Below are positions 684 through 59,639 of a stretch of 64,000 nt of DNA, one piece after another (the stretch's first letter is position 1; each line of letters starts with the position of its first letter). The notes under the pieces were generated by a model, which ran no database searches, was not told the origin of the DNA, and saw only the letters and a program-made list of their open reading frames with translations. The stretch is from an uncultured virus (IMG/VR IMGVR_UViG_3300017992_000735) (taxonomy: Duplodnaviria > Heunggongvirae > Uroviricota > Caudoviricetes), in the IMG/VR virus record IMGVR_UViG_3300017992_000735. The stretch is one strand, 5' to 3'. A program made the translations under genes and the position numbers.

Positions 684-821
684 TTGTGAATCAATTATAA
701 CATGACATTTGAGTTTGTCAAGAGGCCGAACCTTAAAATTTTCAGAACCCACCAAATTGCCTCTTGACAACTGGAGTATTTTGTGTTATAATGTTTATGC
801 AATAAAATGAAAGGAGTAGAC
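684..821. promoter_or_regulatory. Divergent pair of repeated sigma70-type phage promoters (class I cassette)
   Basis: Plus strand: TTGACA 764-769, 17 nt, TATAAT 787-792, then AATGAAAGGAG RBS. Minus strand: TTGACA 721-716 and TATAAT 699-694, preceded by AAAATTTTAAGGTTCGGCCTC. Confidence 0.85.
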
Positions 822-10624: not shown

Positions 10625-12159
10625 GTGGTGATTTCTACGTTAGCTATACCAGCAGTAACATCCAATGTCCCAGTAATATCGGTCCAGGTAGTTCCTTGGT
10701 TGGGGGAGTGTTGGATTAACTGCGCTCCCGCATCGGTTCGAGCAATGACAATCTCATTGGGATCTTCATCCAAAACAGCGATAGCCGAGAGGTCATAAGG
10801 AAGTGCAGCATCTAAAGTTGACCAGCTTGCTACATCGTCCGTTTCAACCAAGTCGTCGTTTCCATCCAAAGCTAGGTATACATGGTTATCATCGTTTGGG
10901 TCTATGGCAATAGGCTGGGCTCGGCTGGTTCCCCAAGAACCGGGGTCAATTCCGGTTGTAGTAGCTCCACCATCTGTAGACAACTCTGTTTGTTCGTTAT
11001 TTCCAAAATACCCAGAGATAACTACCCGCTCACCGGTATACTCTGTTGCTTTGACATTGATCGAGTCCCCTGCTCCTGGGTCAAAGGCTTTGGTCCCCAC
11101 ATGGTCATCTACAAGTGGGAGGTCTGCTGTGACCATAATAGGGTTGTTTGAGGAGTCATAAATCCCTAGGTACAAAATGTCTCCATCCCCGTCTACATCC
11201 ATAGATTGTGGTGGAAGATCTGAGCCAGCACCGATTGGGGACAGGGTGTAAGTGGGGCCGTTTCGGAAAATATTGTCGCCACCACCCATATACCAAGTAA
11301 CAGAGTCCCACTTTATTCCCCCACAGCCTGCAGATTCACTAAGAGCAGATACAGCAGTTGACCAACTCCCTCCAGATCGGGTGTAAAGCTGCGCAGTGGA
11401 TCCTTTGTCAACTCCAATCCAAAGGTTCCCGTCTGACCCTCCTGACAACTCCGCAGCTCCCGTTGTCAGCACCCCAGGTGGGTCTAGGTCTTCGGTCCAG
11501 CTTCCTACATACCTCCAGATCTCATCTTGAGTATAGCTAACTGCGTAGAGGGCTCCGCTGTGTGTGTAGAAAGCTGAGTATCCCAGGCTAGAAACTGTTG
11601 GTTCATCTTGCCAAGCCCCCGCTCCCACAACTCGTTTTATGAGAGTTCCTTCGCCACCAATAACTGTTGACCAATATGTATAAGTTCCAAATTTGATAAT
11701 ATCATACGAAGATATACTATTCGACCCACCTACAGTGTATGAGGTATGGACATCGTGAGACCAACTTCCCCCCAACGTTCTTCTGGAGAAGTGAGCTTCT
11801 TGGATTAAGTGTCCAATCAGTTTTCCACACACAATATATAAATAGCTTCCGTACGCATTGGCGCTGCGTATTGTGTACGCAGCATCTACAGTTGAAACAT
11901 CTAGATCCTTAGTCCAGCTCGTTCCGTTTGTGGTGTAGTACAGATCGTTGATGGATGCCCCCCAGATTCGGCCGTTCCAAATGAAAACGCGTTCTAGGTC
12001 AGAAGCTCCTGCGGGATTCCTTTTTGTCCAAGTAGCATCACCCGTCCGCTCATACAGCCCACGGTCACCATCGGAAGTGCCTCCCTGACACCAGAGTTTA
12101 CCACCGTAGATGAAAAATTGTTTTGCTCTATGTGGCCCAGAATCATTAGCCCACGCCAT
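10621..12159 (-). CDS. Beta-propeller virion protein
   Basis: Asp-box-like repeats (TTNGTSW, STDGGATT, SPNQGTTW). Confidence 0.6.
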   Translation of the reverse strand: MAWANDSGPHRAKQFFIYGGKLWCQGGTSDGDRGLYERTGDATWTKRNPAGASDLERVFIWNGRIWGASINDLYYTTNGTSWTKDLDVSTVDAAYTIRSANAYGSYLYIVCGKLIGHLIQEAHFSRRTLGGSWSHDVHTSYTVGGSNSISSYDIIKFGTYTYWSTVIGGEGTLIKRVVGAGAWQDEPTVSSLGYSAFYTHSGALYAVSYTQDEIWRYVGSWTEDLDPPGVLTTGAAELSGGSDGNLWIGVDKGSTAQLYTRSGGSWSTAVSALSESAGCGGIKWDSVTWYMGGGDNIFRNGPTYTLSPIGAGSDLPPQSMDVDGDGDILYLGIYDSSNNPIMVTADLPLVDDHVGTKAFDPGAGDSINVKATEYTGERVVISGYFGNNEQTELSTDGGATTTGIDPGSWGTSRAQPIAIDPNDDNHVYLALDGNDDLVETDDVASWSTLDAALPYDLSAIAVLDEDPNEIVIARTDAGAQLIQHSPNQGTTWTDITGTLDVTAGIANVEITT

Positions 12160-21653: not shown

Positions 21654-21725
21654 AAAATTTTAAGGTTCCACCTCTTGACAAAAACTGAATTCTGTGTTAT
21701 AATGTAATCACAACAATGAAAGGAG
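21654..21725 (+). promoter_or_regulatory. Class I promoter cassette, antisense within the late operon
   Basis: TTGACA 21675-21680, 17 nt, TATAAT 21698-21703, CAATGAAAGGAG; 40 nt identical to the copy near 53150-53188. Confidence 0.85.
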
Positions 21726-24073: not shown

Positions 24074-24146
24074 AAAATTTTAAGGTTCGACCCCTTGACA
24101 AAATGATGTTTTTGTGTTATAATGTAAGTACAAACAATGAAAGGAG
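24074..24146 (+). promoter_or_regulatory. Class I promoter cassette, antisense within the glycan cluster
   Basis: TTGACA 24095-24100, 17 nt, TATAAT 24118-24123, CAATGAAAGGAG. Confidence 0.85.
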
Positions 24147-29137: not shown

Positions 29138-30168
29138 GCTAACTCTCTGTACAGATCGTTGTACTTCTTAGCCATTATCCTCGCATCAAATAAATCTAAC
29201 GCTCGTTGTTTTCCTGCTTTAGCCATATCCAACCTAGGTTGTTCACACTCCAGTAAGGCCAAAATCGTATGAGCCCATGTTTGGCAATGATAATCTGCTT
29301 TGTGGTTGTCGTTCCAGTAGTTTGGAGATGGGAGGTAGATTGCATAGTCCCGAGCAATCTCAACATTGGTTGAACAATGTGAGCAGATCATTGGAACTTC
29401 GGCGCCAAGCATTTCCGCAGCCACTCGGCCGAACGCTTCTCCAAAGGTTGGAAATAGCCCCACATCCATTGCTCCGTAGGCTAGATCCTTTTCTCGTGTA
29501 CCCCCAGCAAACACCACCTCAGCTCCGAGTTCCTTGGCCAACTCTTTCGCGGGTTCATAGCCATCTTTATCGCCGAACATGATAAACTGGATGTTTGAGT
29601 CTACTTCCTGAACCCGCTTCGCGATCCCAATAGTAGTCCCCGGGCATTTGAAAGCGATGTACCTTCCCATCCAACCGACTACGAACTGGTTTGGGTTTAA
29701 CCCCCAGTGCTTTTTGGCTGCCCTTCTGTCTGCACACTGCAAGCGATCTATATCTACTCCATGATATATAAGTTTTGCACCGACTGGCTGTTTACTAAGC
29801 AATGATTGGCTTCCTGCCACAACAGCTACTAAACCCTCGTAATCACGGTGTATGGGTCCTGCGGTTCCTACAGTAGCAATGGCTGGAACTCCTAAACTGA
29901 GTGCTGTGTCTAAACTATCACATTTTGCATTCGCACCAGGTTGGGCGTGTACAATGTCAACAGTTTTGATAATCTCCCTTAACTCATCAAAGGAGACTTC
30001 TTTGTGATACTCAACTCCTAATTCTCTAAACTCAACTTCTGTTCTATCATCGTTGTGGTAGTTAGCAACTACAAATTGAAAATCTTTAGAGTATTTAATG
30101 AGATCTAAGGATAAGTCTGTTACACCCCCCAAACCTGAGCTTTGTGTAAAATGCAAGACTTTAGTCAT
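29134..30168 (-). CDS. Glycosyltransferase, GT4 family (tandem paralog)
   Basis: GLGG; EAFGRVAAEMLGAEVP. Confidence 0.88.
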   Translation of the reverse strand: MTKVLHFTQSSGLGGVTDLSLDLIKYSKDFQFVVANYHNDDRTEVEFRELGVEYHKEVSFDELREIIKTVDIVHAQPGANAKCDSLDTALSLGVPAIATVGTAGPIHRDYEGLVAVVAGSQSLLSKQPVGAKLIYHGVDIDRLQCADRRAAKKHWGLNPNQFVVGWMGRYIAFKCPGTTIGIAKRVQEVDSNIQFIMFGDKDGYEPAKELAKELGAEVVFAGGTREKDLAYGAMDVGLFPTFGEAFGRVAAEMLGAEVPMICSHCSTNVEIARDYAIYLPSPNYWNDNHKADYHCQTWAHTILALLECEQPRLDMAKAGKQRALDLFDARIMAKKYNDLYRELA

Positions 30169-30866
30169 GGCTTCCTGTAACCTCGAAGTAGTGTTGGAAC
30201 GTCTACAATGTTATAGCCAGGAGGTTTTTGCCATGATTCGGACAATAGTGGTATGTCCATTGGTTCGCAGTAGTGTGTATTTTCCATAATTTCCGTACAG
30301 GCTGAGTATACTCCCGAACTGACAGGTTTATTAAGCTTTACACTGGGCAGCACCCAGTCATGAAACACAATAACTCCACCCTTCCGTAGCATTGGGTAGT
30401 AATCCAGTATATCTTGCTTCACACATTCGTAGGAGTGTCCTCCATCTACAAATACTAAATCCAACCCCTCCTGCTCCCCCCGCACTCGCTTAGCAGCTTC
30501 ATGTGAGGGCATACTGACATGCGCAACTCGATCTTGTATTCTAGAGTAGACTCTATCAAAAGGAACGAATTGCGGAGCGGGGTCAATTGTGTACCCTCGA
30601 AAGTTGTCACCGAACGTTCGCTTCATGGCGGAATACATGAGCAAAGCAGACCCGCCCTCCCATGTACCAATATCTACAAATACCTTAGGAGTTGGAAGAG
30701 CGTTTAACATTTTGCAAACCACATACCAAAGACGGAAGCGATCTTGTACTGCCATTAGCACTTTGACACCTTGGTGTGTGGGATCATCTTCCATAAACGC
30801 ATTCAGTAGTTGCTGAGGAAGCTCTGGGTTAGTCTCAAACGGTGGCCCGTATCTTTCAGATAACAT
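30165..30866 (-). CDS. Class I SAM methyltransferase (Methyltransf_24-like)
   Basis: VDIGTWEGGS; DLVFVDGGHSYE; GGVIVFHD. Confidence 0.88.
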   Translation of the reverse strand: MLSERYGPPFETNPELPQQLLNAFMEDDPTHQGVKVLMAVQDRFRLWYVVCKMLNALPTPKVFVDIGTWEGGSALLMYSAMKRTFGDNFRGYTIDPAPQFVPFDRVYSRIQDRVAHVSMPSHEAAKRVRGEQEGLDLVFVDGGHSYECVKQDILDYYPMLRKGGVIVFHDWVLPSVKLNKPVSSGVYSACTEIMENTHYCEPMDIPLLSESWQKPPGYNIVDVPTLLRGYRKP

Positions 30867-31720
30867 TATCCCTGCACCAGTCCCTTCCGCACGTACCTGC
30901 TACCCAAGTCTACGGCTACAACCACGACTAGTATCACAATGATAATCGTGAGGGTTTCCTGTTTCCTAAATAGCCGGGTTGTTTCGATTAACTTCAATCC
31001 AAGACCGCCAGCACCCACCATGCCCATAATAGCAGCGTCTCGTATGTTGGATTCTAGGTAGTACAGAATGCGACTTATAAACAGCGGGAGGACAAGGGGC
31101 AGCATTCCGTAAAACAGCACCTGCACTTCGTTTGCCCCATCTACTCTCATTGCTTCCAAGATCTCTTTTGCGTGTGTGGACATTGTCTCGATTGTTTCCG
31201 AGAAATGTTTTGTTAAGGCTCCTGAGCAGTGGAGAGACATAGCCAAAACCCCCGCCAGGGGTCCTAACCCTGTCGCGCACACGAAAAGAAGCGCCCACAC
31301 TAGAACGGGAACAGATCGTAGAATATCGGCGACAAGCCTAACTGTGTAATAGCATGGAGGAGATACTGTAGTTTCTTTGGCAGCCAAAAAAGACAAAGGT
31401 AGGGCCACCATAGTTGCTAAAGTAATCCCAGACACCGCCATTTGTACTGTCTCCAACAGAGGAAGCCACAACTCTGGCAGGATGCTCCATTCTGGGGGAA
31501 ACATCCCTAACGCATAATCTACAGCAAATGGAAGTCCACTAACAACTTTGGGTAAATCTACAACAGTTTCTGAGACACTTACTAGAAAAATCGCTAGCAG
31601 AACTACAAGATATGCGTTAGTCCCTTTCAGGAATTTCCATGCCCGCTGCACTCCGGATACCATCAAACTCCTCATCTGAGCACCTGGCCAGCCCACTCCA
31701 CCCAAACTTCCACGCTTCAA
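30866..31720 (-). CDS. phnE: Phosphonate/phosphite ABC transporter permease (start uncertain)
   Basis: LETVQMA; LRSVPVLVWALLF..GLGPLAGVLA; ESNIRDAAIMGMVGAGGLG. Confidence 0.88.
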   Translation of the reverse strand: MKRGSLGGVGWPGAQMRSLMVSGVQRAWKFLKGTNAYLVVLLAIFLVSVSETVVDLPKVVSGLPFAVDYALGMFPPEWSILPELWLPLLETVQMAVSGITLATMVALPLSFLAAKETTVSPPCYYTVRLVADILRSVPVLVWALLFVCATGLGPLAGVLAMSLHCSGALTKHFSETIETMSTHAKEILEAMRVDGANEVQVLFYGMLPLVLPLFISRILYYLESNIRDAAIMGMVGAGGLGLKLIETTRLFRKQETLTIIIVILVVVVAVDLGSRYVRKGLVQG

Positions 31721-32459
31721 TCATCTCGCCAGGAATGTTGACTAAGCACTCTGTTACCTGCTCTTTCAACTCCGGATCCATGGATTTCACTGCAGCGATA
31801 GGTGGATTGGGAATGGGATCAGATACCCAAATGATAGTCATCTCATCTTTTCCGATAACTCCCAACTCCTCAGCTATTCCAACGCGCGCTTTGGTCGAAG
31901 CAGCAGCATCAACTGTTCCGTTCTTGACCGCGTTGAAAGCCGCATCATAGCTACCAGAGAAGATAGTATCTTTGGGAGTAATGTTATTCTTCTCCAAGTA
32001 TTTGCGAGGCATAAGATGTCCAGAGGTTGAGGCAGGGTCTAGATAAGATAGTGTTTTATCTTCTAGCTGCTCGACATATGTAATACCGCTATCAGTGCGA
32101 ACAAAGATAACGCTATAGTAGACATCACTGCCAGACTTAGCGTCAACAGCATAGACAATAGCCTCAATCTCAGCGCCCGAATCCACACCTAGCACATAGC
32201 TGTACGCCCCCAACCTGCCTAACTCAGCATGCCCATACTTCATTGCCTCAATCGTAGCAGTATAGTCGGAGACCGTTTTAATCTCAAACGGTCTGTCTAG
32301 GCACTCAGTCATATACTCTGCAAACGGCGCGTAAATCACTTTGCAGGTGTCAGCATCCTCCAGTGGAATAACCGCCATAGTCACAGCACCGGTTTCTTGC
32401 CCCACACAGCCAACAAGAACAACAACCAACAGTAGTAACACGCTTAATCTTTTAAGCAT
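31617..32459 (-). CDS. phnD: Phosphonate/phosphite ABC transporter substrate-binding lipoprotein
   Basis: Lipobox LVGC; DYTATIEAM; DPASTSGHLMP; SDPIPNPP. Confidence 0.88.
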   Translation of the reverse strand: MLKRLSVLLLLVVVLVGCVGQETGAVTMAVIPLEDADTCKVIYAPFAEYMTECLDRPFEIKTVSDYTATIEAMKYGHAELGRLGAYSYVLGVDSGAEIEAIVYAVDAKSGSDVYYSVIFVRTDSGITYVEQLEDKTLSYLDPASTSGHLMPRKYLEKNNITPKDTIFSGSYDAAFNAVKNGTVDAAASTKARVGIAEELGVIGKDEMTIIWVSDPIPNPPIAAVKSMDPELKEQVTECLVNIPGEMIEAWKFGWSGLARCSDEEFDGIRSAAGMEIPERD

Positions 32460-40328: not shown

Positions 40329-41200
40329 ACGAAACAGCTCTCTGGGAACTCCGAAACCCTAGCAAACTCAAAGGCATCTTTAACTTCTTCGTTCACCGTA
40401 GTATCTTTTACTCCCCGCAACAAATCCAATTCTTGATCCAATCGAATAGCTACATCGTCCCTATATCCTAAATGAAAATCCTCCCCCGGTCCTACATGCT
40501 CCATCCACCTACAAACTTTGCAGTGAAGAAGCGCTGGATGATTATCTCGAACCGACCGGACTAAGAATTCTATCTTCTCTTTTACCTTAAACGGATCGTT
40601 GCCTTTCACAAATCCATATACTGCACCAAAACTCTCAACCTTATGCTTGACAGACCCGCAGAACCTGCTCTCAGTAGGAGAGTGTGTGGCATACCCATTG
40701 TCTTCCAGCACAAATAGAACAGGAAGCTTTTTCAATGCCGCAAAGTTTAAAGACTCCCAAAAAACCCCTTCATCGAGAGCCCCATCTCCAAAGGGAGCGA
40801 CCGCGATTTGTCCTGTTCCTTTCATTTTGAAGGCCCAGGCGGCACCGACAGCTACTGGAATGTTGGAGGCGACGATTGATGAGGAAAGACTGACCCCAAC
40901 TTCCGTATCTACGACGTGCATTGAACCACCCATGCCGCCTGAGCAGCCAGTTTTTTTGCTGTACAGCTCAGCGGCCAAGGCTCGTATATCTCCGCCCTTG
41001 GCCAGGTACCAATGATGATTTCTATGAGAAGGAAATACCCAGTCTGTTTGTTTAAGGTAAGAACAGACACCGACAGCTACTGCCTCTTGCCCGTTGCAGA
41101 GGTGGATCGGACAACGCATCAGCAGCTCAGACATATAGCGGTTTGAGACTTCCTCCTCAAACCGCCTTATACGCAACATATCTTTAATAAGAGGATCCAT
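40325..41200 (-). CDS. TPP-dependent dehydrogenase E1 alpha-like subunit
   Basis: HLCNGQEAVAVG; GGSMH; GDGALDEG...EDN TPP-binding motif. Confidence 0.9.
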   Translation of the reverse strand: MDPLIKDMLRIRRFEEEVSNRYMSELLMRCPIHLCNGQEAVAVGVCSYLKQTDWVFPSHRNHHWYLAKGGDIRALAAELYSKKTGCSGGMGGSMHVVDTEVGVSLSSSIVASNIPVAVGAAWAFKMKGTGQIAVAPFGDGALDEGVFWESLNFAALKKLPVLFVLEDNGYATHSPTESRFCGSVKHKVESFGAVYGFVKGNDPFKVKEKIEFLVRSVRDNHPALLHCKVCRWMEHVGPGEDFHLGYRDDVAIRLDQELDLLRGVKDTTVNEEVKDAFEFARVSEFPESCFV

Positions 41201-42140
41201 AGCCCTTCTTTCTCATCCACTTGACATTGATGGTTCTTGGGTCATTTTGACTCGTTTTGCTTTCGTGGATGGCCTCTAAGATTTCCATAATAGCGTCTTC
41301 AACGGTATACTGAGGTTTCCATTGAAAATACTCTTCCGCCCTATCCCCACGAACTTGGTAGGATCTGTTGTCTCTGCACTCTTCGATCAAGTTGATCTCG
41401 GCCCCGGTGCAATCACTAACCAGTTGAGCAATTTCTCCTGTGGTCATGCTAACAGCTGAGACATTGAAAATATTGGCTTCTGGATGTACTATCAGCCCAG
41501 GCCACTCAACAAGTGTACAATAGAAATTGACCATGTCTTGAATGTGAAGAAGAGAGCGGTACTGTTGCCCGCCCCAAAGCTCTATCTGACCGTCTTCTGC
41601 TGCCTGTCCTGTAAACCCGTTAACCATGAGATCAAACCGCATCCGAGGAGAGTATCCCATCAGAGTTGCTGGCCTTACAACAACCACATCTGGAATCTCG
41701 GGCTCTACAACCCGCTCCGCCCAAACTTTGGAGGCGGAGTACCTCGTTAGTGGTTTCAATGGACTATTTTCTGTAGCTTTCTCTTCACATATACCGTAGA
41801 CAGAGGATGAACTAGCGTAAATTAGCCGCTGGCAGCCACAGCCTCTGACGACGTTGAGTGTTCCACCTACATTGGTTGTCCAAGTTAGATCAGCATCTAG
41901 CTCTGAGCAGGGGTCATTACTGATAGCTGCTAAGTGGACTATGCAATCTGCATCTCTGAGAGCTTTGGTAAACCCCTCAGTCGGCTCCCGAATGTCAACT
42001 TGGATGTTTTCAATACTGCCCTCTGGCCACTCATCGAACAGTAACCAATCAGCTACTACGACATCGTGGCCACGCTTGACTAATGTAGGAACCAAAACAT
42101 GCCCCACATACCCTGCCCCACCAACAACCAGAACTCTCAT
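41184..42140 (-). CDS. NAD-dependent nucleotide-sugar epimerase/dehydratase
   Basis: GGAGYVG; HLAAISND; ASSSSVYG; YSASK. Confidence 0.92.
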   Translation of the reverse strand: MRVLVVGGAGYVGHVLVPTLVKRGHDVVVADWLLFDEWPEGSIENIQVDIREPTEGFTKALRDADCIVHLAAISNDPCSELDADLTWTTNVGGTLNVVRGCGCQRLIYASSSSVYGICEEKATENSPLKPLTRYSASKVWAERVVEPEIPDVVVVRPATLMGYSPRMRFDLMVNGFTGQAAEDGQIELWGGQQYRSLLHIQDMVNFYCTLVEWPGLIVHPEANIFNVSAVSMTTGEIAQLVSDCTGAEINLIEECRDNRSYQVRGDRAEEYFQWKPQYTVEDAIMEILEAIHESKTSQNDPRTINVKWMRKKGYGSSY

Positions 42141-43576
42141 GCCAGTAATCCTTTGATAAACTTCTTAAATTCAATTGGGTCAACCGGCTTGTTTCCAAAT
42201 ATTGACACCTTCATTGCCCCATAGGCGTTGCCTAGGAGCCCAACTACAGTCAGCGGAAGTCCTAAAGCGACCAAAGGAGCAGTGATTGATAAAAACGCAT
42301 CCCCTGCTCCTACTGTGTCTACAACAGAGGATGCCACTGGAGGAAAATACTCAACGAATCCTCCTCCTTGGTAGGTGACAGATCCCTCGTGCCCGAGAGT
42401 AACTGCTAAAATATTTGCCACGTCTAGGTTGGCTGCTAAATCCCCAATAGCTCCTTTCTTATCGCCGCAAGCCAATCTAAGCTCTTTCTCATCAATAACA
42501 GCATAGTCTACATCATACCATTTGGTAACTAGGTTATAACCATAGTTGGCTGAATTGGTTTGAACGTTGACTGCCAAGAAGGGAGATTCTCCGATAATGT
42601 AACCAATTAGATCTTTTGTAAACAGCCCATGACCATAATCGCAAACTATAACAGCATCTACAGAACCAAGAAGTGCACCAACGGAGTTTTCTAAGTCTCT
42701 GCGAATGGTCTCTGGGTAGTCTTCATCGAGATGTATCTCTTCTGCGACCTTGCTACTTGTCCCCTTTTCTATCAGCCGCCGTTTGCGGATGGTTGGGTGC
42801 GAGCATAGGTGTGTGGTGATTCCCTGTAAGGCAAGGTTATCGCCGCAAGTAACCAAAGAAACATTTTCACAAAACTGAGCTAAATTACGTGCAACTACTG
42901 CTGCCCCTCCTGCGTACGTGTCCTCACTTAGATGCTGCATCGGAACCATAACATCTTTTGAGGAGCGATTTAATGCCCTACAGAGCACATACTCATCTCG
43001 AATGTATTCTCCAACAACCAAAACCTTGAGATCTCTAAGTTCTGTAAAATAATTTTCAATGTCGCGATAACTAACGAGATTCTTTACTTTGGCAATAAGT
43101 CTCTCAAGGTCTGGGCCAAGAGATGTTTGGTTGATTACTTTCGAAGATGAAAAGTCACCTATCATCCTCAGAAGGGCAACTCGTCCCCCGTAACCTTCTA
43201 CAAACTCTTTTTCTTTGATAATATGGTTGGAAGGGCAATCTAAAACTTCCTCTCCTTTACAATAGACGTCTGGCCGAATCGCTTCCAAAACATCCATAGC
43301 ATCTGGGGATTCATTTACGGCGACTAAATCTACATACCTAATCGCCTCTACGACAGAAGCTCTCGTTTGTTGGTTGAAAACCGGGCGGCTGGGACCCTTT
43401 CGTACAAACTCATCTGGTGTTAAAGTAACAACCAGTATATCGCCGCAGCTTTTTGCTTCTTTTAGGTGCTGAATATGCCCCGCATGTACTACATCGAAAA
43501 CACCGTGACAAAGGACAATTTTCTTGCCCTGCCGTTTCTCTTCCGCGCACGTGTGATATAGGTCTAGTAGTTCCAT
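42137..43576 (-). CDS. Bifunctional nucleotidyltransferase / PfkB kinase (HldE/RfaE-like, transferase domain N-terminal)
   Basis: HGVFDVVHAGH; KGPSRP; DYGHG; DTVGAGDAF. Confidence 0.88.
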   Translation of the reverse strand: MELLDLYHTCAEEKRQGKKIVLCHGVFDVVHAGHIQHLKEAKSCGDILVVTLTPDEFVRKGPSRPVFNQQTRASVVEAIRYVDLVAVNESPDAMDVLEAIRPDVYCKGEEVLDCPSNHIIKEKEFVEGYGGRVALLRMIGDFSSSKVINQTSLGPDLERLIAKVKNLVSYRDIENYFTELRDLKVLVVGEYIRDEYVLCRALNRSSKDVMVPMQHLSEDTYAGGAAVVARNLAQFCENVSLVTCGDNLALQGITTHLCSHPTIRKRRLIEKGTSSKVAEEIHLDEDYPETIRRDLENSVGALLGSVDAVIVCDYGHGLFTKDLIGYIIGESPFLAVNVQTNSANYGYNLVTKWYDVDYAVIDEKELRLACGDKKGAIGDLAANLDVANILAVTLGHEGSVTYQGGGFVEYFPPVASSVVDTVGAGDAFLSITAPLVALGLPLTVVGLLGNAYGAMKVSIFGNKPVDPIEFKKFIKGLLA

Positions 43577-43577
43577 A

Positions 43578-44252
43578 TTAGTCTATAATTGATACATCAA
43601 GGTTAAACTTGCCACAAAGGTACAACTTGTTCCTGTGAACCTCTAACGGACCTAGCACGCCTTCGCGTGACTGGTGCTTGTGGTGGAACACTTTCAACCC
43701 AAAAGTAGGTTTTTCAACCCATCCCTTCTCCCTCATTCGAATTTGCCAGTCAACGTCTTCGCAAGTGCCGGGCCAGTAGCTCTCATCAAACTCTCCTACC
43801 TCTTCCCAAACCCCCCTCGAAAACATCCACAGACTTCCTTCGATAAAGGGAATTCCAGCCCAAACCATGTGCTGCATACCAGTACACCCACAGTTGGGAT
43901 TCTCCTTTAGAGTAACCAGCATGGGAGTCAAAACGGGGCCCTGGATGACCATATCATTGTTTATCAAGCAGATGTAGTCGCCCCTTGAGTGGCGAATTCC
44001 AAAGTTCCACCCACCAGGCACCCCCAAATTCTCCTCAGATTGGAGAATTTGAAAATCCTTGAGCCAGACATGATTCCAGCCCTCAGAGACTCTCTGTAGT
44101 TCTTCCCAAGTCTCTCCGCCATCTGGGGATCCGTTATCGAGGATTATCAACTCACTCGGGTAATCCAACCATGAGAAGAAGGAGTCGAGGAAAGCGGAGG
44201 TTAGATACCACTTGCCATAGCAAAGGACGACAACGCTGACGAGTTCTTCCAT
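43578..44252 (-). CDS. Glycosyltransferase, GT2 family
   Basis: LDNGSPD; NLGVPGGWN; LINND; EDVDW. Confidence 0.9.
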   Translation of the reverse strand: MEELVSVVVLCYGKWYLTSAFLDSFFSWLDYPSELIILDNGSPDGGETWEELQRVSEGWNHVWLKDFQILQSEENLGVPGGWNFGIRHSRGDYICLINNDMVIQGPVLTPMLVTLKENPNCGCTGMQHMVWAGIPFIEGSLWMFSRGVWEEVGEFDESYWPGTCEDVDWQIRMREKGWVEKPTFGLKVFHHKHQSREGVLGPLEVHRNKLYLCGKFNLDVSIID

Positions 44253-51640: not shown

Positions 51641-53128
51641 TCACTGCGCTTCCTTCCTGAGGACTTTGTTGTATTCCTTGGCAATTTTTCCATTGTCTGC
51701 AACCATCAGCTCTGCGCACAACTGGAAAGCCCAATTCTCAAACGCCCTCGTACAATCCTGTGCACTCGATTCTTGATGCCCATACTCATGGACAAATGTT
51801 CTCAAAACTGCTAGTAGGTCTGAATCTCTCAAATGGTCATGCCTCAACCAGCAAGTTTGATCTTCATAGAACCCATTGCGGGTTTCGGCATGTGAACCTT
51901 TAGGGACAAACACTTTAACGAAAATCGGCCAACCCATGTGATCTCGGACTTTTTCCAGAAACCTTTTTCTCCTATTGGCTTTTGTGTCGAGTGTCTTGCG
52001 TTCCCTATAAGGATCTGGAATATCAGCAACGTCTTCGTCATACCTAATATTCCCGTCTACAAAAACTCGTTGGTATACTGGGTTATCTACTCGAACTACA
52101 GTGTATCCTCTCCTTCTCGCCTCTGCGGCTACAATATCATTTGACCACAGAACTGTCTTTCGAGACCCTCCTGTCTCCTTTCTTAGGGCTGAGACCCACC
52201 GCTTTGGGTCTTCTGGATCAAGGCGCTGAACTCGACCTTCCAATTTGCGTCGGTCATCGAGGATAACTACTTCCCTGATGATCTGCCGGATCTTGCTGAA
52301 GGTCTTGAGCTCTGACAACTCTCTGGTAATCTCGGGAATGAGATCATTGTCATCCACAATATTTCGGTCTCGGTTGAGAGGAATATCAAGGTTATAGGAG
52401 AACACAGCGTCAATCTCCCTAACAAAGATCCCCTTAACGAACAGCCGAGCGCCTTGCCAACTCTTTGGTTCAAAGATTGCCTTTGTCGAGGGACTTCGAG
52501 TCTTTTTTGTTTTTCGACCACCGCTACTCGTTACCCGAGCTGTTCGCTTCCGAAGTTTTTTGTAATCTGGGAAGTAATCCTTGGCATACTGGAGGTATTC
52601 ATCAGCAGCAGTGTTCCACTCAATGAAAATCCTTGTCCCGGGGTGCGTACTTCGGTGCTTGTAGACGTTTAAGGCCAGGACCTCATATTTGTCCTTGATA
52701 ATGACCGGCTCGATGGCCCAGTCACGAGAGGTCATATAAAGCCCAATGCCCTCTCTAACTGCCACCAGAAAAGCCATCAATTGCCCCTCACCCTTCTGTC
52801 CACGGTAATGGGTACCCCGCTTACCCGAGATCCCTAGGAATAAAATGTCCTCCAGGTCAACTCCTCGGCCTTCATCCCAGATTCTCCAATACTGCTGGCC
52901 GTTGACTTTGTAGTCCTTCCAGATCTCCATGTACTCTGAGAGGTGGCCGCCATTTTGATCTGCTTGGTAGTCAGCCTCATCCATGATATTTTGCATGCAC
53001 TCACGAACCATCTCCCACGGACCCCACTTGGAAGCTTCGTCATTGAGGTACTCAAGGCTGATGTTAGTCAAAATCTGGCGGTCAAACCTGTACTTCTTGC
53101 CATTGACTTTCAGAAACTCGGCCATCAT
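51641..53128 (-). CDS. GHKL-type ATPase with C-terminal HExxH metallopeptidase-like motif
   Basis: RECMQNIMD; DEGRG; GISGK..GQKGEG; GTRI; VHEYGH. Confidence 0.75.
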   Translation of the reverse strand: MMAEFLKVNGKKYRFDRQILTNISLEYLNDEASKWGPWEMVRECMQNIMDEADYQADQNGGHLSEYMEIWKDYKVNGQQYWRIWDEGRGVDLEDILFLGISGKRGTHYRGQKGEGQLMAFLVAVREGIGLYMTSRDWAIEPVIIKDKYEVLALNVYKHRSTHPGTRIFIEWNTAADEYLQYAKDYFPDYKKLRKRTARVTSSGGRKTKKTRSPSTKAIFEPKSWQGARLFVKGIFVREIDAVFSYNLDIPLNRDRNIVDDNDLIPEITRELSELKTFSKIRQIIREVVILDDRRKLEGRVQRLDPEDPKRWVSALRKETGGSRKTVLWSNDIVAAEARRRGYTVVRVDNPVYQRVFVDGNIRYDEDVADIPDPYRERKTLDTKANRRKRFLEKVRDHMGWPIFVKVFVPKGSHAETRNGFYEDQTCWLRHDHLRDSDLLAVLRTFVHEYGHQESSAQDCTRAFENWAFQLCAELMVADNGKIAKEYNKVLRKEAQ

Positions 53129-53131
53129 GCA

Positions 53132-53243
53132 GCTCCTTTCATTGTATTTGATTACATTATAACACAGAATTCAGTTTTTGTCAAGAGGCAACTGAAAATT
53201 TTAAGGTTCGACCTCTTGACAAATGTAGATTCTATGTTATAAT
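53132..53243. promoter_or_regulatory. Divergent pair of class I promoters
   Basis: Minus: TTGACA 53184-53179, 17 nt, TATAAT 53161-53156, RBS. Plus: AAAATTTTAAGGTTCGACCTC, TTGACA 53216-53221, TATAAT 53238-53243. Confidence 0.85.
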
Positions 53244-53249
53244 TGTATT

Positions 53250-53590
53250 GTGTTAGGATCTGGTAGTGTATGGGTCAGAACTGGAGGCTAGACCTCTGTG
53301 AGATTGCAACCTCCCATAATTGTTTGAGCGTCTCCAGCCTACCTAACTAACACACCCAAGCAGAGGGCAAGGCCTTAGGCCCCACCCGCTTGGCCCGAGG
53401 TGGCCAGCCTCTTAATTCACTGGGGGTGCAATCGGGCAAAGAGAAAATGGCGAACCTCTGCCAACACCGTCCAGCCTGTGGCCGCGACCTTCTAGGGAAA
53501 GCACTCGAAGCGCTGGGGGAGTGCCGCTTGACTGACGGGTCAGGGTCGTGGAGACCCACGCCTTAGCGGAAGGGGGCGCGGTGGGCAGGC
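53250..53590 (+). ncRNA. Candidate multi-domain structured ncRNA
   Basis: No convincing ORF after a strong promoter; stems GTGTTAG/CTAACAC, GCAGAGG/CCTCTGC, CGCGACCTT/AGGGTCGTG, GCACTC/GAGTGC. Confidence 0.5.
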
Positions 53591-53593
53591 AAC

Positions 53594-53671
53594 GTCAGAA
53601 TGTCGGAACGGTAGACGAGCACGAGAGTGTGCCTGAATACGGGCGTGCAGGTTCGAATCCTGCTTCTGGCG
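53594..53671 (+). ncRNA. tRNA-like element (type II, Leu-like D arm) with the anticodon arm reduced to a GAGA tetraloop
   Basis: Acceptor GTCAGAA/TTCTGGC; D arm TCG-GAACGGTAGA-CGA; GCAC-GAGA-GTGT; variable arm GCCTG-AATA-CGGGC; T arm GCAGG-TTCGAAT-CCTGC. Confidence 0.8.
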
Positions 53672-53810
53672 TTTAGTAGGTTACAATGTCAAAACAACGA
53701 GTTCGAAGAAGCACACAGAACGAATCTGGAAGGGGAGATCGGCTTAGGAAGCGCCAAAAAGTTGAAAAAGTGAGGCGTACTGGCCGGAGGAATAAAAGCC
53801 AATCCTAGCT

Positions 53811-54227
53811 ATGCAGACTTTTTTACCTTACCCGAGTTTCATCGAATCAGCCAGGTGCCTTGATAATAAGAGACTTGGCAACCAGAGAAGGGAAGTACTA
53901 TCCATCCTAACTGCTCTCACTGACCCAACTGTGGGTTGGCAGAATCATCCTGCAGTGAAGATGTGGAGGGGGTATGGTAGCGCGCTCATAGACTATGGAC
54001 TTACCATCTGCATTTGGTGGAAGATCCGGGGATACAAGGATACCTGTTACTCAAAGATACTCAAGTCAATAGGAAAGTTTCCCGACCAGTTGTACAATCC
54101 ACCTTGGCTTGGAGATGAAGATTTTCACTCCAGCCACCGCGCTGCTCTGCTGGCTAAGGACCCCGAGTGGTACGGGCAGTTTGGGTGGAGTGAGGAGCCC
54201 AAGATTGAGTATATTTGGCCGGTATAA
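53811..54227 (+). CDS. MSMEG_6728-family / pyrimidine-dimer DNA glycosylase-like protein
   Basis: MQTFLP..SA..LD.KRLG.QR.E; HPAVKMWRG; PPWLG..FHSSHR..LL.K; YIWPV. Confidence 0.85.
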   Translation: MQTFLPYPSFIESARCLDNKRLGNQRREVLSILTALTDPTVGWQNHPAVKMWRGYGSALIDYGLTICIWWKIRGYKDTCYSKILKSIGKFPDQLYNPPWLGDEDFHSSHRAALLAKDPEWYGQFGWSEEPKIEYIWPV

Positions 54228-58041: not shown

Positions 58042-59639
58042 CTAGGTGAATGAAGTGCCCCCGACGATGCTGCAGCCGGTGCCAAGGTGACCTGCAAAGC
58101 TTGCCGTGTAGGCGGCTTGCGCACACATATGCTTTCTAAATATCTTTGTTATCATAAAGGTGTTTAACCCTCTATTTCTTACTGTTACCAGTAAGCTCGG
58201 ACTATGTCTTCGCTCATTTCTGAACGCCCCGCGCTCGTGGGAGAATTATTGCCATACCTCTCGGTTCAGGCGCACTCCTAGTCTCTACACCCACCAAAAA
58301 GTTTCCCTTCTGGCTTGGCTCGGCGTTGTCCCAGTGGGAGTTTCGCCGAATTCACGGAGTTAAGTGACAAAGCGTTTATCACTAGTGCAGTCACCGCGTA
58401 GATTTCAAAGGCAAAAGCTGTACAGCCTCTTGGCAGATCTACATAACTTAATGGTGTTTGTGTACTCTTATACACAATAGGTTCTCCATTATGATAAACT
58501 CTTAATGGATACACCGTCGAGCTAAATATATCTGCCCCCGTCGTCGTGGCAGTGAACCGGAAGTCCGGAACCAGGATCAACTCTCCTACGAACGTCTGGA
58601 TTCTCGGAGCTAGCGTGAAGCCAGCCACGATGCCTCCGCGGTCCTGGTTGATCTGGATCATTTGGACGGGCTGTGTCCCTCCGGTGGCGCCCAAGCTCAG
58701 GTAGCCGATAGCGATGGCTCGGAGAGCTTTGGGGTGACCGAAGATGTGGGTGGGTCTTGCACACCCAGCAGCGAGGAAGTTGTCGAACTCTTCCTCGTCA
58801 TAGGTCCCGGTCGGGTTGCTGTTGGTCCGCGCACCGTTTGCAGATGTGACTTGGGTCTCGATCCCGTCGAAAGCGTTCGCAACTGTAGCGATTGCTCCCT
58901 TGACCAGGGCGAGGTCCCACTTGTTCAGCACAGTCACTTCCTGGAGTTTCATCATCTTCTCTTTGACTCCGATCACTGTTTCGATTCCAGAGTCTAGAGA
59001 AAGTCGGCTGATCCCCAATCCCTGCGCGCGTGCGACTGCTATCGAGTGACGTAAGTCCTCGTAGGTGATAGACTCATAACTGCCGATGTACTTGCGGGCA
59101 ATTGTAGTCGTCTCACCCTCATGCGTGGTCTCGTCCGGACAAGCTCCTTTAGTGAAGAAGCCATGGGACGCCTCCCCCGTGGTGTCGAAGCTCAGGCTGG
59201 TCATCTCTCGCCAGCTATCTGAGTTGTAATCGGTCACCACTTCAGGCAACGTCTTCCAGACTGTGATCTCCTCACACATGTCCAAAACCTCAGTCGGATC
59301 TAGAGGCTGAGGATACTGGTTAGAGAAGTCTGCGGGCTGCGTATAGGGCTGAGGCAGGATATTTGGGTCGGTTTGGGTCTTCTCAACCATTCCCTTGATG
59401 ACTTCCACAGCGGGATCGCCTTCCGGCTCCGGCTGGTTCAGGTTCTCATAAACAGACTGAGCAACCTGCTGCATCTCGGTCATGGTCAAGTCCTCGCCGC
59501 CCTTAGCCTCTCGCACCTGTAACACGGCCCTAGCAACAATGTCCTCGATGTTCGGACCTTCGGCAGGTTCACGACGACCTGCGATGTCGGCGGCACTCTT
59601 GGTCACGATATCGGTAATCGTAGGAACCAAGAGTTCCAC
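58042..59639 (-). CDS. Major capsid protein, spliced: exon 1 59639-58378, exon 2 58135-58042 (451 aa)
   Basis: Follows the protease gene; AFDGIETQV and PTHIFGHP capsid-like motifs; splicing restores ...TALVIKHMCAQAAYTASFAGHLGTGCSIVGGTSFT. Confidence 0.85.
58136..58377 (-). mobile_element. Group I intron (242 nt, no internal ORF)
   Basis: P GAATTCGGCGAAAC, Q ACGCCGAGCCAAG, R GTGTAGAGACTA, S AAGACATAGTCC; P1 AGTGAT/GTCACT with U.G pair; P10 GCTTT/AAAGC; terminal G. Confidence 0.92.

What the first reader, a model, noticed from the sequence alone, without database searches (positions are those of the whole stretch)
53591..53673. tRNA-like RNA with no anticodon loop
Seen: canonical acceptor stem, Leu-type D loop (GAACGGTAGA), long variable arm and perfect T arm (GGTTCGAATCC), but the anticodon arm is a 4-bp stem capped by a GNRA tetraloop (GCAC-GAGA-GTGT). 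The acceptor stem can extend to 10 bp (AAC/GTT), and there is no encoded CCA. Known: SerRS and most bacterial LeuRS ignore the anticodon; RNase P and T-boxes read the elbow. Inference: a clean tetraloop cap looks selected rather than decayed. It may be a processing signal for the upstream ncRNA, a decoy for tRNA-targeting defences, or an aminoacyl donor. It is not a tRNA-Sec (no UCA anticodon).
Basis: partly seen in the sequence, partly recalled or inferred. Interest (0 to 1): 0.72.

Follow-up and report, generated by a model that had tools for sequence, protein, structure and literature searches.

The report
Phage tRNA-shaped RNA without anticodon
A 109-kb bacteriophage carries a gene for an RNA that has every part of a transfer RNA except the anticodon loop, so it cannot decode; it looks like a deliberately kept tRNA look-alike, in a phage that also makes other tRNA-shaped RNAs next to its Ro60 RNA-quality-control gene.

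Summary
Window 53594-53671 (+) scores as tRNA (Rfam RF00005, 31.9 bits, cut-off 29). It has a 7-bp acceptor stem, D arm, long variable arm, perfect T arm and all elbow nucleotides. The anticodon arm is only a 3-4 bp stem capped by GAGA. ARAGORN calls nothing.

It is not an assembly error. The same letters stand in two IMG/VR records, two metagenome contigs and five sequencing runs. A diverged relative in a marsh metagenome keeps the short hairpin with loop UUAG, so GNRA is not conserved, and keeps a paired variable arm.

The body matches class II phage tRNAs with the 7-nt anticodon loop removed.

The window is a 108,853-bp phage with no normal tRNA. The phage encodes Ro60, two Y RNAs and three more tRNA-shaped RNAs whose anticodon arms are replaced. 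A consensus sigma-70 promoter lies 344 nt upstream, and the element sits in a 560-nt non-coding leader before denV. No Ro-binding motif is present.

Best reading (0.4): a domesticated ex-tRNA cut out by tRNA-end enzymes, punctuating the leader and leaving a non-decoding tRNA mimic. Rivals are a free decoy or effector, an aminoacyl donor, or a relic. This is a new variant of a known kind.

The parts
53216..53243 (+). Consensus sigma-70 promoter (TTGACA, 16 nt, TATAAT, with TG); predicted start near 53250
   Evidence: 12 of 12 hexamer matches. It belongs to a promoter module, CCTCTTGACA..TGTTATAAT, present 9 times in the phage. The same module, about 88% identical over 53192-53249, precedes the Ro60/Y RNA operon.
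53156..53184 (-). Divergent twin promoter for the 495-aa gene
   Evidence: 12 of 12 matches. The two inverted promoter copies explain the weak 'MIR7504' hairpin match at 53153-53247.
53250..53593 (+). Non-coding leader upstream of the element; 53340-53593 is GC-rich (0.63 against 0.47 for the window)
   Evidence: GC content. No Rfam family matches at E<=10. The fold is not better than shuffles (z = -0.30). Relatives cover 53347-53482 (X8) and 53385-53485 (X9, an RNA library). No difference is listed between 53375 and 53452, and their sequence diverges after 53485.
53591..53593 (+). AAC that can pair with GUU at 53671-53673, extending the acceptor helix to 10 bp
   Evidence: Read directly from the sequence; present in the MFE fold.
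53594..53671 (+). tRNA-shaped RNA without an anticodon loop, 78 nt including discriminator G
   Evidence: Rfam tRNA 31.9 bits; cloverleaf MFE; ARAGORN finds nothing; homology to class II phage tRNAs.
53619..53630 (+). Stub that replaces the anticodon arm: G-CAC-GAGA-GUG-U (10-12 nt where a tRNA has 17)
   Evidence: In the Rfam and R1 alignments this is where normal tRNAs carry 7 more nucleotides. The relative keeps the stem and has loop UUAG.
53631..53644 (+). Long variable arm (5-bp stem, 4-nt loop)
   Evidence: In the relative it is a 4-bp stem with a 4-nt loop, and a U-G pair is replaced by C-G (read by hand).
53647..53663 (+). T arm GCAGG-UUCGAAU-CCUGC
   Evidence: It is identical to the T arm of the paralogue t1 in the Ro60 operon.
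53672..53810 (+). Spacer between the element and denV; no terminator-like site found
   Evidence: One search finds no terminator on + between 53408 and 54227. The relative differs at 12 listed places plus one inserted base.
53811..54227 (+). denV-like pyrimidine dimer DNA glycosylase gene, probably on the same transcript
   Evidence: Pfam Pyr_excise, E = 1.7e-22, residues 1-79.
51641..53128 (-). Divergently transcribed 495-aa gene of unknown function; used as the synteny anchor
   Evidence: No Pfam family; PHROG 6077, unknown function; 22 homologues found.

Best explanation
The element is a domesticated former class II tRNA. Its 7-nt anticodon loop and the top of its anticodon stem have been removed. 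Everything that tRNA-end and elbow-reading enzymes recognise has been kept: the acceptor/T minihelix, the D/T elbow and the variable arm.

It is transcribed early from a consensus sigma-70 promoter, as part of a 560-nt non-coding leader that runs into denV.

Proposed mechanism (inferred). Host RNase P cuts at its 5' end. RNase Z or an equivalent enzyme cuts after the discriminator. The element therefore acts as punctuation, separating the upstream roughly 340-nt GC-rich RNA from the denV message. It is itself released as a stable 77-78-nt L-shaped RNA that can receive CCA but cannot decode.

The phage uses the same design in its Ro60 operon. There, three tRNA-shaped RNAs with replaced anticodon arms are interleaved with other RNA modules and with two Y RNAs.

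Shown here: the anatomy, the descent from tRNA, the promoter, the context, and persistence of the truncation in a relative. Inferred: transcription, cleavage by RNase P and RNase Z, CCA addition, and what the released RNA does.
For: 1. The tRNA body is intact, with all elbow nucleotides.

2. The closest sequences are real class II phage tRNAs. L140 and L157 score 48.7 and 47.7 bits. They share the letters on both sides of the anticodon loop and at the base of the variable arm. The element differs by lacking 7 nt exactly where their loop lies.

3. The truncation is not private and not an artefact.
- Identical copies occur in G001, L088 and L089.
- Five runs from four studies hold 0.94-0.96 of the sampled words.
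- One diverged contig (X8 record 9, 21 substitutions and 5 gaps over 180 nt) keeps the stub. All 7 listed edits inside the element fall in the tetraloop or the variable arm and preserve pairing.

4. A perfect promoter lies 344 nt upstream, and no terminator-like site lies before denV. Of the 9 copies of this promoter module, most sit about 20 nt from a Shine-Dalgarno site and a start codon. Two have long non-coding leaders: this locus and the Ro60 operon (read by eye from 50 nt downstream of each).

5. The phage has no normal tRNA (ARAGORN finds 0 in 108,853 bp) but carries three more tRNA-shaped RNAs with non-anticodon arms.
- t1 scores 40.5 bits as tRNA and has the same T arm.
- t2 and t3 carry Y-type helices.
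- t3 abuts Y RNA a with no spacer.

6. The t3 type is conserved upstream of Ro60 in other phages, with 16 of 27 pairs showing compensatory changes. tRNA-shaped RNAs with a replaced anticodon arm are therefore functional in this group.

7. [quoted passage not shown]
Against: - There are no RNA ends. The only RNA-library contig (X9) covers 53385-53485 of a relative, not the element, and does not prove transcription.
- A bare processing signal needs only an acceptor/T minihelix. Retention of the D arm and of a paired variable arm suggests that something else reads the whole body.
- Pairing of AAC with GUU at the base of the acceptor stem would, if formed, hinder rather than help the end-processing enzymes.
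- The upstream region does not fold better than shuffles (z = -0.30), so a structured RNA that needs releasing is not shown.
- Conservation rests on one short contig, and its 5' 30 nt were not scored. Divergence inside the visible part of the element (7 edits in 56 nt) is no lower than in the 3' flank (12 substitutions in 94 nt).
- No homologue was found in 50 other Ro60-phage records, in the 5 closest ones, or beside 18 distant homologues of the neighbouring gene. The element is therefore lineage-specific.
Confidence: 0.4

Rival explanations
1. Free-standing tRNA mimic acting as an effector or decoy. The released L-shaped RNA binds a protein that reads the tRNA body. Candidates are the unknown partner of the tRNA-like modules of the phage's own Y RNAs, a host tRNA-modifying or tRNA-processing enzyme, or a tRNA-targeting defence nuclease. 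With no anticodon loop it cannot be cut or used, so it would titrate the partner.
For: - The complete body is kept, including the variable arm, which changes in a pair-preserving way in the relative.
- The phage builds tRNA-shaped modules into Ro60-linked RNAs.
- The element shares its T arm, and a similar D arm, with t1 of that operon.
- It lies just upstream of a UV-repair gene, driven by the same promoter module as the Ro60 operon.
- From passages of PMC4201824: the tRNA-like domains of bacterial Y RNAs are modified or cut by tRNA enzymes, and the authors do not yet know their interactors.
Against: - No Ro-binding motif or Y-type helix occurs anywhere in 53250-53810.
- The element lies about 50 kb from rsr.
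- No candidate binding protein was found among the ORFs scanned: 124 protein scans, a few of them repeats of one ORF, with no aaRS, RtcB, CCA enzyme or tRNA nuclease.
- It is absent from 55 other Ro60-phage records.
- No defence system is known to me that is blocked this way (recalled).
Confidence: 0.25
2. Non-decoding aminoacyl carrier. After CCA addition the RNA is charged, most plausibly by SerRS, which reads the long variable arm, the acceptor stem and G73 rather than the anticodon. It then serves as an amino-acid donor or as a sink for the synthetase.
For: - The variable arm is long and the discriminator is G.
- The exact 25-mer of T arm, 3' acceptor strand and discriminator recurs once in 185,579 species genomes. 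There it forms the 3' end of what I hand-read as a split class II tRNA-Ser(UGA).
- An 842-nt contig in run X8 matches 53640-53675 with 4 differences. Its upstream letters hand-read as a normal anticodon arm with loop CUCGAGA, i.e. Ser CGA.
- That SerRS ignores the anticodon is recalled knowledge, not tested here.
Against: - The D arm is Leu-type and the closest bodies are tRNA-Leu and a class II tRNA with anticodon GUU. The acceptor has U2-G71 where the bacterial Ser identity set, as I recall it, has G2-C71. Identity is therefore ambiguous.
- CCA is not encoded, although the closest phage tRNAs do encode it.
- No tRNA-dependent transferase, synthetase or CCA enzyme was found in the phage.
- One 25-mer hit among roughly 10 million tRNA genes is about what chance would give.
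Confidence: 0.1
3. Neutral relic. A phage tRNA gene lost its anticodon loop by a 7-nt deletion and is merely carried along in a leader, not yet eroded.
For: - The element equals a class II tRNA body minus the loop, which a single deletion plus two substitutions could produce.
- Divergence from the relative is no lower inside the element than in the flank.
- It is lineage-specific.
- The GNRA loop is not conserved.
Against: - No stem carries a single mismatch, and every tertiary nucleotide is intact.
- The edits in the relative avoid all stems or compensate for each other.
- The phage has no working tRNA set from which a relic could come. Instead it has four tRNA-shaped RNAs, none with an anticodon loop, and two of them belong to a family with covariation support.
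- It sits behind a perfect promoter.
Confidence: 0.2
4. Assembly or sequencing artefact: a real tRNA gene with a collapsed anticodon loop.
For: None found.
Against: A diverged relative has the same short arm with different loop letters.
Confidence: 0.01

Closest known systems
Class II phage tRNAs: tRNA-Leu(UAA/UAG), and a class II-shaped tRNA with anticodon GUU and discriminator G (loci L140, L157, L162, L137, L178)
   Same: Same D arm (GGAACGGUAGAC type), same T loop, a variable-arm hairpin and a 7-bp acceptor stem. L140 and L157 also share the letters flanking the anticodon loop and discriminator G. Scores are 45-49 bits against the element's own model.
   Different: They have a 5-bp anticodon stem with a 7-nt loop and encode CCA. 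The element's arm is 7 nt shorter, its variable arm is 4 nt longer, and it has no CCA. ARAGORN calls them and not the element.
D. radiodurans Yrn1, a Y RNA with a tRNA-like domain in tRNA order
   Same: By the paper's description, the arm order is D-like, then a stem-loop at the anticodon-arm position that is not a real anticodon loop, then the T arm, with the ends in the helix that stands for the acceptor stem (passages of PMC4201824).
   Different: In Yrn1 that terminal helix is the Ro-binding site, there is no variable arm, and the D arm is doubtful. The element has a plain tRNA acceptor stem, a full D arm and a variable arm, and no Ro-binding motif. I did not have the Yrn1 sequence to compare.
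YrlA Y RNAs (Rfam RF02553)
   Same: A non-decoding RNA with tRNA-like D and T arms, in a genome that encodes Ro60. [quoted passage not shown]
   Different: YrlA is circularly permuted: T arm, capped acceptor hairpin, D arm, and ends in a Ro-binding stem (consensus). The element is in normal tRNA order and scores 16.2 bits against a cut-off of 69. It has no GNCGAA(N)G motif and lies about 50 kb from rsr.
The phage's own tRNA-shaped RNAs t1-t3 and their relatives upstream of Ro60 genes (L016, L018, L020, L021, L235)
   Same: Normal tRNA order, open acceptor ends, good D and T arms, no anticodon loop and no encoded CCA. t1 has the identical T arm.
   Different: Their anticodon arm is replaced by a 50-60-nt insert. 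In t2, t3 and the relatives the insert is a covarying helix carrying the Y RNA motifs GGGUCGA/GGGCCGA and GGUUAUC. In the element the arm is simply capped.
tRNA-like processing signals: mascRNA at the end of MALAT1, and t-elements of plant mitochondria (recalled from memory; no call)
   Same: They work like the proposed mechanism. A tRNA-shaped fold inside a longer transcript is cut by RNase P and RNase Z, which defines the ends of the neighbouring RNA.
   Different: Those systems are eukaryotic or organellar and unrelated in sequence. No bacterial or phage case with a complete class II body is known to me.
tRNA-like domain of tmRNA
   Same: A non-decoding RNA with an acceptor stem and a T arm.
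   Different: tmRNA splits the domain around a large mRNA-like and pseudoknot part and has only a reduced D region. ARAGORN finds no tmRNA, and the element is contiguous.

Membership tests
Canonical tRNA | 7-bp acceptor stem, D arm, T arm with a UUCRANY-type loop, and the elbow nucleotides | tested here: met
   Rfam RF00005 gives 31.9 bits against 29.
Canonical tRNA | 5-bp anticodon stem with a 7-nt loop carrying U33 and an anticodon | tested here: not met
   The arm is a 3-4-bp stem with a 4-nt loop. ARAGORN calls nothing. The Rfam alignment skips the arm with a local end.
Canonical tRNA | 3' CCA, encoded or added, and aminoacylation | not testable with these tools
   CCA is not encoded: G then UUU follow the stem. 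Addition and charging need experiments.
tRNA-Sec | UCA anticodon, an 8/5 (bacterial) acceptor/T arrangement, and a long D stem | tested here: not met
   There is no anticodon, and the D stem is 3 bp. An 8-bp acceptor would be possible only if C53593 pairs with G53671.
Y RNA / YrlA (Ro60 partners) | Ro-binding helix with the GNCGAA(N)G 5'-strand motif | tested here: not met
   No match in 53250-53810. No hit of Rfam Y-type families at E<=10 apart from YrlA at 16.2 bits. The phage Y RNA model R2 hits only Ya and Yb.
Y RNA / YrlA (Ro60 partners) | Encoded next to a Ro60/TROVE gene | tested here: not met
   Ro60 is in the same phage but about 50 kb away, at G001 30653-32293; the element is at about G001 81.2 kb.
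Y RNA / YrlA (Ro60 partners) | tRNA-like domain (T and D arms) | tested here: met
Y RNA / YrlA (Ro60 partners) | Physical binding to Ro60 | not testable with these tools
   Needs co-immunoprecipitation.
tmRNA | Split tRNA-like domain, tag reading frame and pseudoknots | tested here: not met
   ARAGORN finds no tmRNA. No Rfam tmRNA match is listed at E<=10, though one lower-scoring overlapping match from the same clan as the tRNA hit was left out unnamed. The element is contiguous.
tRNA pseudogene | Loss of function with unconstrained decay (mismatched stems, lost tertiary nucleotides, no conservation) | tested here: inconclusive
   Decoding is lost. However, all 24 modelled pairs are standard and the tertiary nucleotides are intact. 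The single relative changes only the loop and variable arm. One relative is too few.
RNase P / RNase Z processing signal (tRNA-like punctuation) | Acceptor/T minihelix with elbow inside a longer transcript, with cleavage at its two ends | tested here: inconclusive
   The fold and its position in a long leader behind a promoter are met. Cleavage was not observable: the runs were contigs only, and none covers the element as RNA.

The most novel reading that the evidence does not exclude
The phage deliberately makes a complete tRNA body with the anticodon cut away. This non-decoding L-shaped RNA would be matured, and perhaps charged, like a tRNA. Its job would be to occupy a tRNA-reading factor. 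Candidates are the still unknown partner of the tRNA-like modules of Ro60-bound Y RNAs, or a host defence or stress enzyme that attacks or senses tRNAs. It cannot be cleaved in the anticodon loop and cannot enter decoding. It would then be the free 'effector half' of a modular phage system whose other members (t2, t3) carry the same body fused to a Ro60-binding helix.
Probability: 0.2. Interest if true: 0.8.

Novelty: new variant of a known kind. Interest (0 to 1): 0.55.

Why it matters
tRNA mimicry by non-coding RNAs is known from tmRNA, YrlA and Yrn1 Y RNAs and viral tRNA-like structures. What the mimic binds remains unknown for Y RNAs.

This phage lays the parts out separately. It has plain Y RNAs, tRNA bodies fused to a Y-type helix, a tRNA body with a long arm of another kind, and this element, which is the bare body with the anticodon arm capped off. 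That natural series gives a direct handle on two questions:
- Which host factor reads the tRNA-like module?
- Are such modules mainly cut-here signals for RNase P and RNase Z in polycistronic non-coding transcripts?

It also shows that tRNA finders miss a class of tRNA-derived phage genes.

If the element turns out to be a relic, the finding is minor. The conserved tRNA-shaped Y RNA family next to phage Ro60 genes stands regardless.

Tried and rejected
- **tmRNA or two-piece tmRNA.** ARAGORN finds none and no Rfam tmRNA match is listed. Rejected.
- **YrlA.** The only match is weak (16.2 bits) and aligns the T arm alone; the topology is permuted. Rejected.
- **A Y-type helix hidden in the flanks.** No motif is present and model R2 gives no hit. 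GGUUAC at 53679 and AAACAAC at 53692 resemble motifs in t1's arm, but both are changed in the relative. I treat this as chance.
- **Synteny in the five closest Ro60 phages (G002-G006).** None of the 5 has the element, the 495-aa gene or denV. These answers had no positive control.
- **Loci of the 495-aa gene's homologues.** The metagenome scan gave 20 loci. Only the 2 identical ones carry the element. L105 has a weak hit (E = 0.1, 92 nt) that I did not follow. The IMG/VR scan with the alignment added only one 30%-identity locus.
- **Exact-word scans of IMG/VR.** The stub, the T arm with 3' acceptor strand and the upstream conserved core each found only this phage.
- **Length-window pattern (GGTAGA, 31-37 nt, GGTTCGAATCC).** ARAGORN as tRNAs and 26 not. 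I looked at 9 of the 26. None has the same architecture. L189 and L158 have tetraloop-capped arms, but L189 needs a roughly 45-nt D-loop insert and L158 has a poor acceptor stem.
- **R1 over 50 of the 75 Ro60-phage records.** I chose one record per distinct contig and left out short contigs and duplicates. The search gave 11 places: 9 normal tRNAs, 1 t3-type RNA and 1 odd 76-nt RNA.
- **GenBank phages.** No DNA match; the 495-aa protein has only hits at 26% identity or less.
- **Function of the 495-aa neighbour.** PDB profile and PHROGs searches gave nothing.
- **Runs X6-X9 as evidence of expression.** They are contigs only. The RNA-library contig covers 53385-53485 of a relative and not the element, so there is no evidence on transcript ends.
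- **Earlier notes of this scan.** Nothing for this genome or sequence.
- **Papers.** I found none describing an anticodon-less phage tRNA-like RNA. Supplementary tables of PMC4201824, which list phage YrlA RNAs, were not opened and could bear on whether the t3 type is already listed.
Full report
**What is there**

Window 53594-53671 (+) reads as a complete class II tRNA body. The anticodon arm is reduced to G-CAC-GAGA-GUG-U.

- ARAGORN finds no tRNA or tmRNA in the whole window.
- Rfam's whole-window run at gathering thresholds reports only a group I intron at 58178-58506 (-).
- With laxer filters the Rfam tRNA model matches 53594-53671 end to end. It scores 31.9 bits against a gathering score of 29 and skips the anticodon arm.
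- The minimum-free-energy fold is the cloverleaf with a 10-bp terminal helix, a short hairpin, a variable-arm hairpin and a T arm. Energy is -32.4 kcal/mol, z = -2.64, and 3 of 200 shuffles do as well.
- U8, A14, A15, the GG of the D loop, A21, G26, U at the position-48 equivalent, the UUCGAAU T loop and its closing G-C are all present. The discriminator is G, and UUU follows rather than CCA.
- The + strand is the RNA strand, because two pairs are G-U (read directly).

**Where it lies**

The window is a bacteriophage.
- It is the reverse complement of an IMG/VR fragment (G000) and is 99.99-100% identical to a complete 108,853-bp record with terminal repeats (G001).
- Pfam scans of 124 proteins (a few ORFs entered twice) show family A DNA polymerase, clamp and clamp loader, primase, 7-deazaguanine precursor genes, a very large glycan/phosphonate cluster, an intein-bearing UvrD-like helicase, HNH endonuclease and methylases.
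- They show no synthetase, RtcB, CCA-adding enzyme or tRNA nuclease.

The element sits in the 680-bp gap between a divergent 495-aa gene of unknown function and a denV-type pyrimidine-dimer glycosylase gene.
- Two perfect sigma-70 promoters (12 of 12 positions, with TG) face outwards. The + one is at 53216-53243 and the - one at 53184-53156.
- The + promoter would start an RNA near 53250. The element begins 344 nt later and denV 140 nt after it ends.
- No terminator-like site lies between the element and denV.

The promoter belongs to a module found nine times in the phage.
- By eye from the 50 nt shown after each copy, most lie about 20 nt from a Shine-Dalgarno site and a start codon.
- Two are followed by long non-coding stretches: this locus and the Ro60 operon.

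**The Ro60 operon of the same phage**

This operon lies just outside the window. G001 encodes a 546-aa Ro60 orthologue with TROVE and Ro60 vWA domains. Upstream, behind the same promoter module, lie in order:
- a 160-nt leader;
- t1 (L008 9876-9988), which scores 40.5 bits as tRNA and has a 54-nt insert in the anticodon arm;
- a 247-nt spacer;
- t2 (10236-10358);
- t3 (10365-10488), which has an 8-bp acceptor stem;
- two small Y RNAs at 10489-10552 and 10563-10636. They match Rfam's nematode stem-bulge (Y RNA homologue) family at 38.5 and 30 bits, and fold with z = -5.0 and -3.7.

ARAGORN with default settings finds no tRNA in the whole phage. With introns allowed it mislabels t1 and t3 as intron-bearing tRNAs.

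t1 has exactly the T arm of the finding, and a similar D arm.

t2 and t3 carry the Y RNA motifs GGGUCGA/GGGCCG and GGUUAUC in place of the anticodon arm. The same design, as 121-130-nt tRNA-model hits, stands just upstream of Ro60 in four other phages. In a six-sequence alignment, 16 of 27 predicted pairs show compensatory changes. These include six of seven acceptor pairs and the long arm.

tRNA-shaped RNAs in normal arm order, with open acceptor ends and a replaced anticodon arm, are therefore a conserved functional class beside phage Ro60 genes. Rfam's YrlA consensus is the permuted form: T arm, capped hairpin, D arm. Passages of PMC4201824 say that D. radiodurans Yrn1 has the other orientation.

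**Is the finding one of these?**

It is not, by the defining feature.
- 53250-53810 has no GNCGAA(N)G motif.
- It has no Y-type Rfam match apart from a meaningless 16-bit YrlA alignment.
- A model built from four phage Y RNAs hits only the two known ones in the window and in G001 20-80 kb.
- The element lies about 50 kb from rsr.

**Descent**

I built a covariance model (R1) from the element. I ran it on 100 of 113 phage loci that had been picked by a length-window pattern. The best matches, at 45-49 bits, are genuine class II tRNAs.
- Several are tRNA-Leu(UAA) or tRNA-Leu(UAG).
- At the top are L140 and L157. ARAGORN calls these tRNA-Asn(GUU). They are 85 nt long with a long variable arm, discriminator G and encoded CCA.

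L140 and L157 share the element's letters on both sides of the anticodon loop and at the base of the variable arm. The element lacks 7 nt exactly where their loop lies. The two nucleotides that would be positions 39-40 read GA instead of UC, which makes the GAGA cap. Its variable arm is 4 nt longer (the comparison is by hand from those outputs).

The 3' part looks Ser-like.
- The exact 25-mer of T arm, 3' acceptor strand and discriminator occurs once in the 185,579-species genome set. The hit is in a MAG labelled as an uncultured archaeon. There I hand-read it as the 3' end of a split class II tRNA with loop CUUGAAA.
- A contig in run X8 matches 53640-53675 with 4 differences. It continues upstream into what hand-reads as a normal arm with loop CUCGAGA.

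One such genome hit is about what chance allows. I draw no host inference from it, and identity (Leu, Ser or Asn type) stays open.

**Artefact or private deletion?**

It is neither.
- Identical sequence stands in G000, G001 and two metagenome contigs from different samples.

I laid four other runs, all as contigs, at 80% likeness.
- X7 has a near-identical strain, with 2 differences over 53650-53798.
- X8 has a 214-nt contig at depth 7.7 that covers 53586-53765 with 21 substitutions and 5 gaps.

Within the element, the listed edits in the X8 contig are:
- a T inserted after 53622;
- G53623T;
- loss of 53626;
- loss of 53634;
- G53635C;
- loss of 53639;
- C53640T.

Read by hand, the stem GCAC/GUGU stays and the loop becomes UUAG. 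The variable arm becomes a 4-bp stem with a 4-nt loop, in which a U-G pair is replaced by C-G. No edit is listed in the T arm, the 3' acceptor strand or the discriminator.

Two limits apply. Edits within about 30 nt of the ends of the aligned piece are not listed, so nine substitutions are unseen and the 5' acceptor strand and D arm are unscored. It is also a single contig. The 3' flank shows 12 listed substitutions in 94 nt, so the element is not more conserved overall. What is non-random is where its changes fall.

**Distribution**

The element is rare.
- There is no R1 hit in the five closest Ro60 phages (no positive control).
- None of 11 R1 places in 50 further Ro60-phage records is anticodon-less.
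- There is none beside 18 distant homologues of the 495-aa gene.
- Word scans of IMG/VR return only this phage.
- Closer relatives of the neighbouring gene exist (63-74% identity), but their DNA could not be fetched.

**Mechanism**

What is kept is exactly what RNase P, RNase Z, the CCA-adding enzyme, T-loop modifiers and elbow readers need. What is lost is exactly what decoding and anticodon-reading enzymes need.

The element sits inside a long non-coding leader. The sister operon interleaves tRNA-shaped units with other RNA modules, down to a zero-nucleotide junction between t3 and Y RNA a. [quoted passage not shown]

I therefore put first, at 0.4, that host tRNA-end enzymes excise the element. 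This would separate the upstream RNA from the denV message and release a non-decoding tRNA mimic.

Retention of the D arm and of a paired variable arm argues that the released RNA is itself read by something. That keeps the decoy or effector reading close behind, at 0.25. Charging is possible but unsupported (0.1). A recent relic cannot be excluded with one relative (0.2).

Transcription, cleavage, CCA addition and any binding are all inferred.

**The upstream region**

53340-53593 is GC-rich (0.63) but does not fold better than shuffles. Relatives in X8 and in an RNA library (X9) cover 53347-53485. They show no listed difference between 53375 and 53452, then diverge. This conserved core lies mostly upstream of a possible 39-codon frame (53447-53566), which speaks against coding. 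I did not resolve what it is.

**Verdict**

The element is a tRNA-derived, anticodon-less, tRNA-shaped phage RNA. It is a new variant among tRNA-mimic non-coding RNAs. It is not a member of the Y RNA, YrlA, tmRNA or tRNA-Sec families.

Noticed in passing
L008 9660-12293 (= G001 29660-32293; just outside the window's left end): A phage Ro60 operon. In order it holds a promoter module, a leader, tRNA-shaped t1, a 247-nt spacer closed by an 11-bp stem (GGGCGAUGCGG with CCGCAUCGCCC, read by eye), tRNA-shaped t2 and t3, two small Y RNAs of eukaryote/nematode type, Ro60 (TROVE and vWA) and DUF6166.
   Followed up: partly
L016 2752-2875, L018 2715-2835, L020 2749-2872, L021 399-528, L235 (G034 84290-84413), L008 10236-10488: A conserved family of tRNA-shaped Y RNAs in normal tRNA order. 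Acceptor ends are open, and a Y-type helix with GGGUCGA and GGUUAUC motifs stands in place of the anticodon arm, making them a circular permutation of YrlA. 16 of 27 pairs show compensatory changes. I did not check whether the supplements of PMC4201824 already list them.
   Followed up: partly
L140 134-218, L157 134-218, L234 (G013 363198-363277), probably L200: Phage tRNAs with anticodon GUU (Asn) but a class II body: long variable arm, Leu-type D arm, discriminator G. This is an unusual architecture for tRNA-Asn and is seen in several unrelated viral contigs.
   Followed up: no
window 53377-53452 and 53447-53566: A 76-nt core of the upstream leader shows no listed difference in two diverged relatives, one from a metatranscriptome, although their sequence diverges after 53485. 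A possible 39-codon frame starts at 53447. No Rfam family matches.
   Followed up: partly
window 53779-53801: A small hairpin, UGGC-loop-GCCA, whose 5' side reads GGCCGGAGG, the same letters as the 5' strand of the phage's Y RNAs. It sits 10 nt before the denV start. The Y RNA model R2 does not match it.
   Followed up: partly
window 58178-58506 (-): A group I intron (Rfam 63.8 bits) overlaps the 3' part of a 453-aa frame (58278-59639) that has no Pfam or PHROG family. The interrupted gene was not identified.
   Followed up: no
window 2170-4674 (+): A UvrD-like helicase carrying an intein with a DUF559-type endonuclease domain and an N-terminal topoisomerase zinc ribbon.
   Followed up: no
window 694-792, 2112-2144, 21671-21703, 24091-24123, 53156-53243; G001 29680-29711, 43852-43884: Nine copies of one extended promoter module (CCTCTTGACA, spacer, TGTTATAAT). 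Several are in divergent pairs. Most are followed by a stereotyped short leader ending in AAAGGAG.
   Followed up: partly
L009 878-2587 (G001 40878-42590): QueD-like, radical-SAM QueE-like and GTP cyclohydrolase I genes in a row. This suggests 7-deazaguanine modification of the phage DNA.
   Followed up: no
L189 and L158 (IMG/VR loci from the pattern scan): Other phage tRNA-like sequences that ARAGORN does not call and whose 'anticodon' stems are capped by 4-nt loops. L189 would need a roughly 45-nt insert in the D loop. L158 has an 8-bp stem with loop UAGA.
   Followed up: partly
L224 106-425 (MAG labelled uncultured archaeon): A class II tRNA, hand-read as Ser(UGA), split by an insert of about 225 nt after the anticodon loop. 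It shares an exact 25-mer with the finding. ARAGORN does not call it.
   Followed up: no
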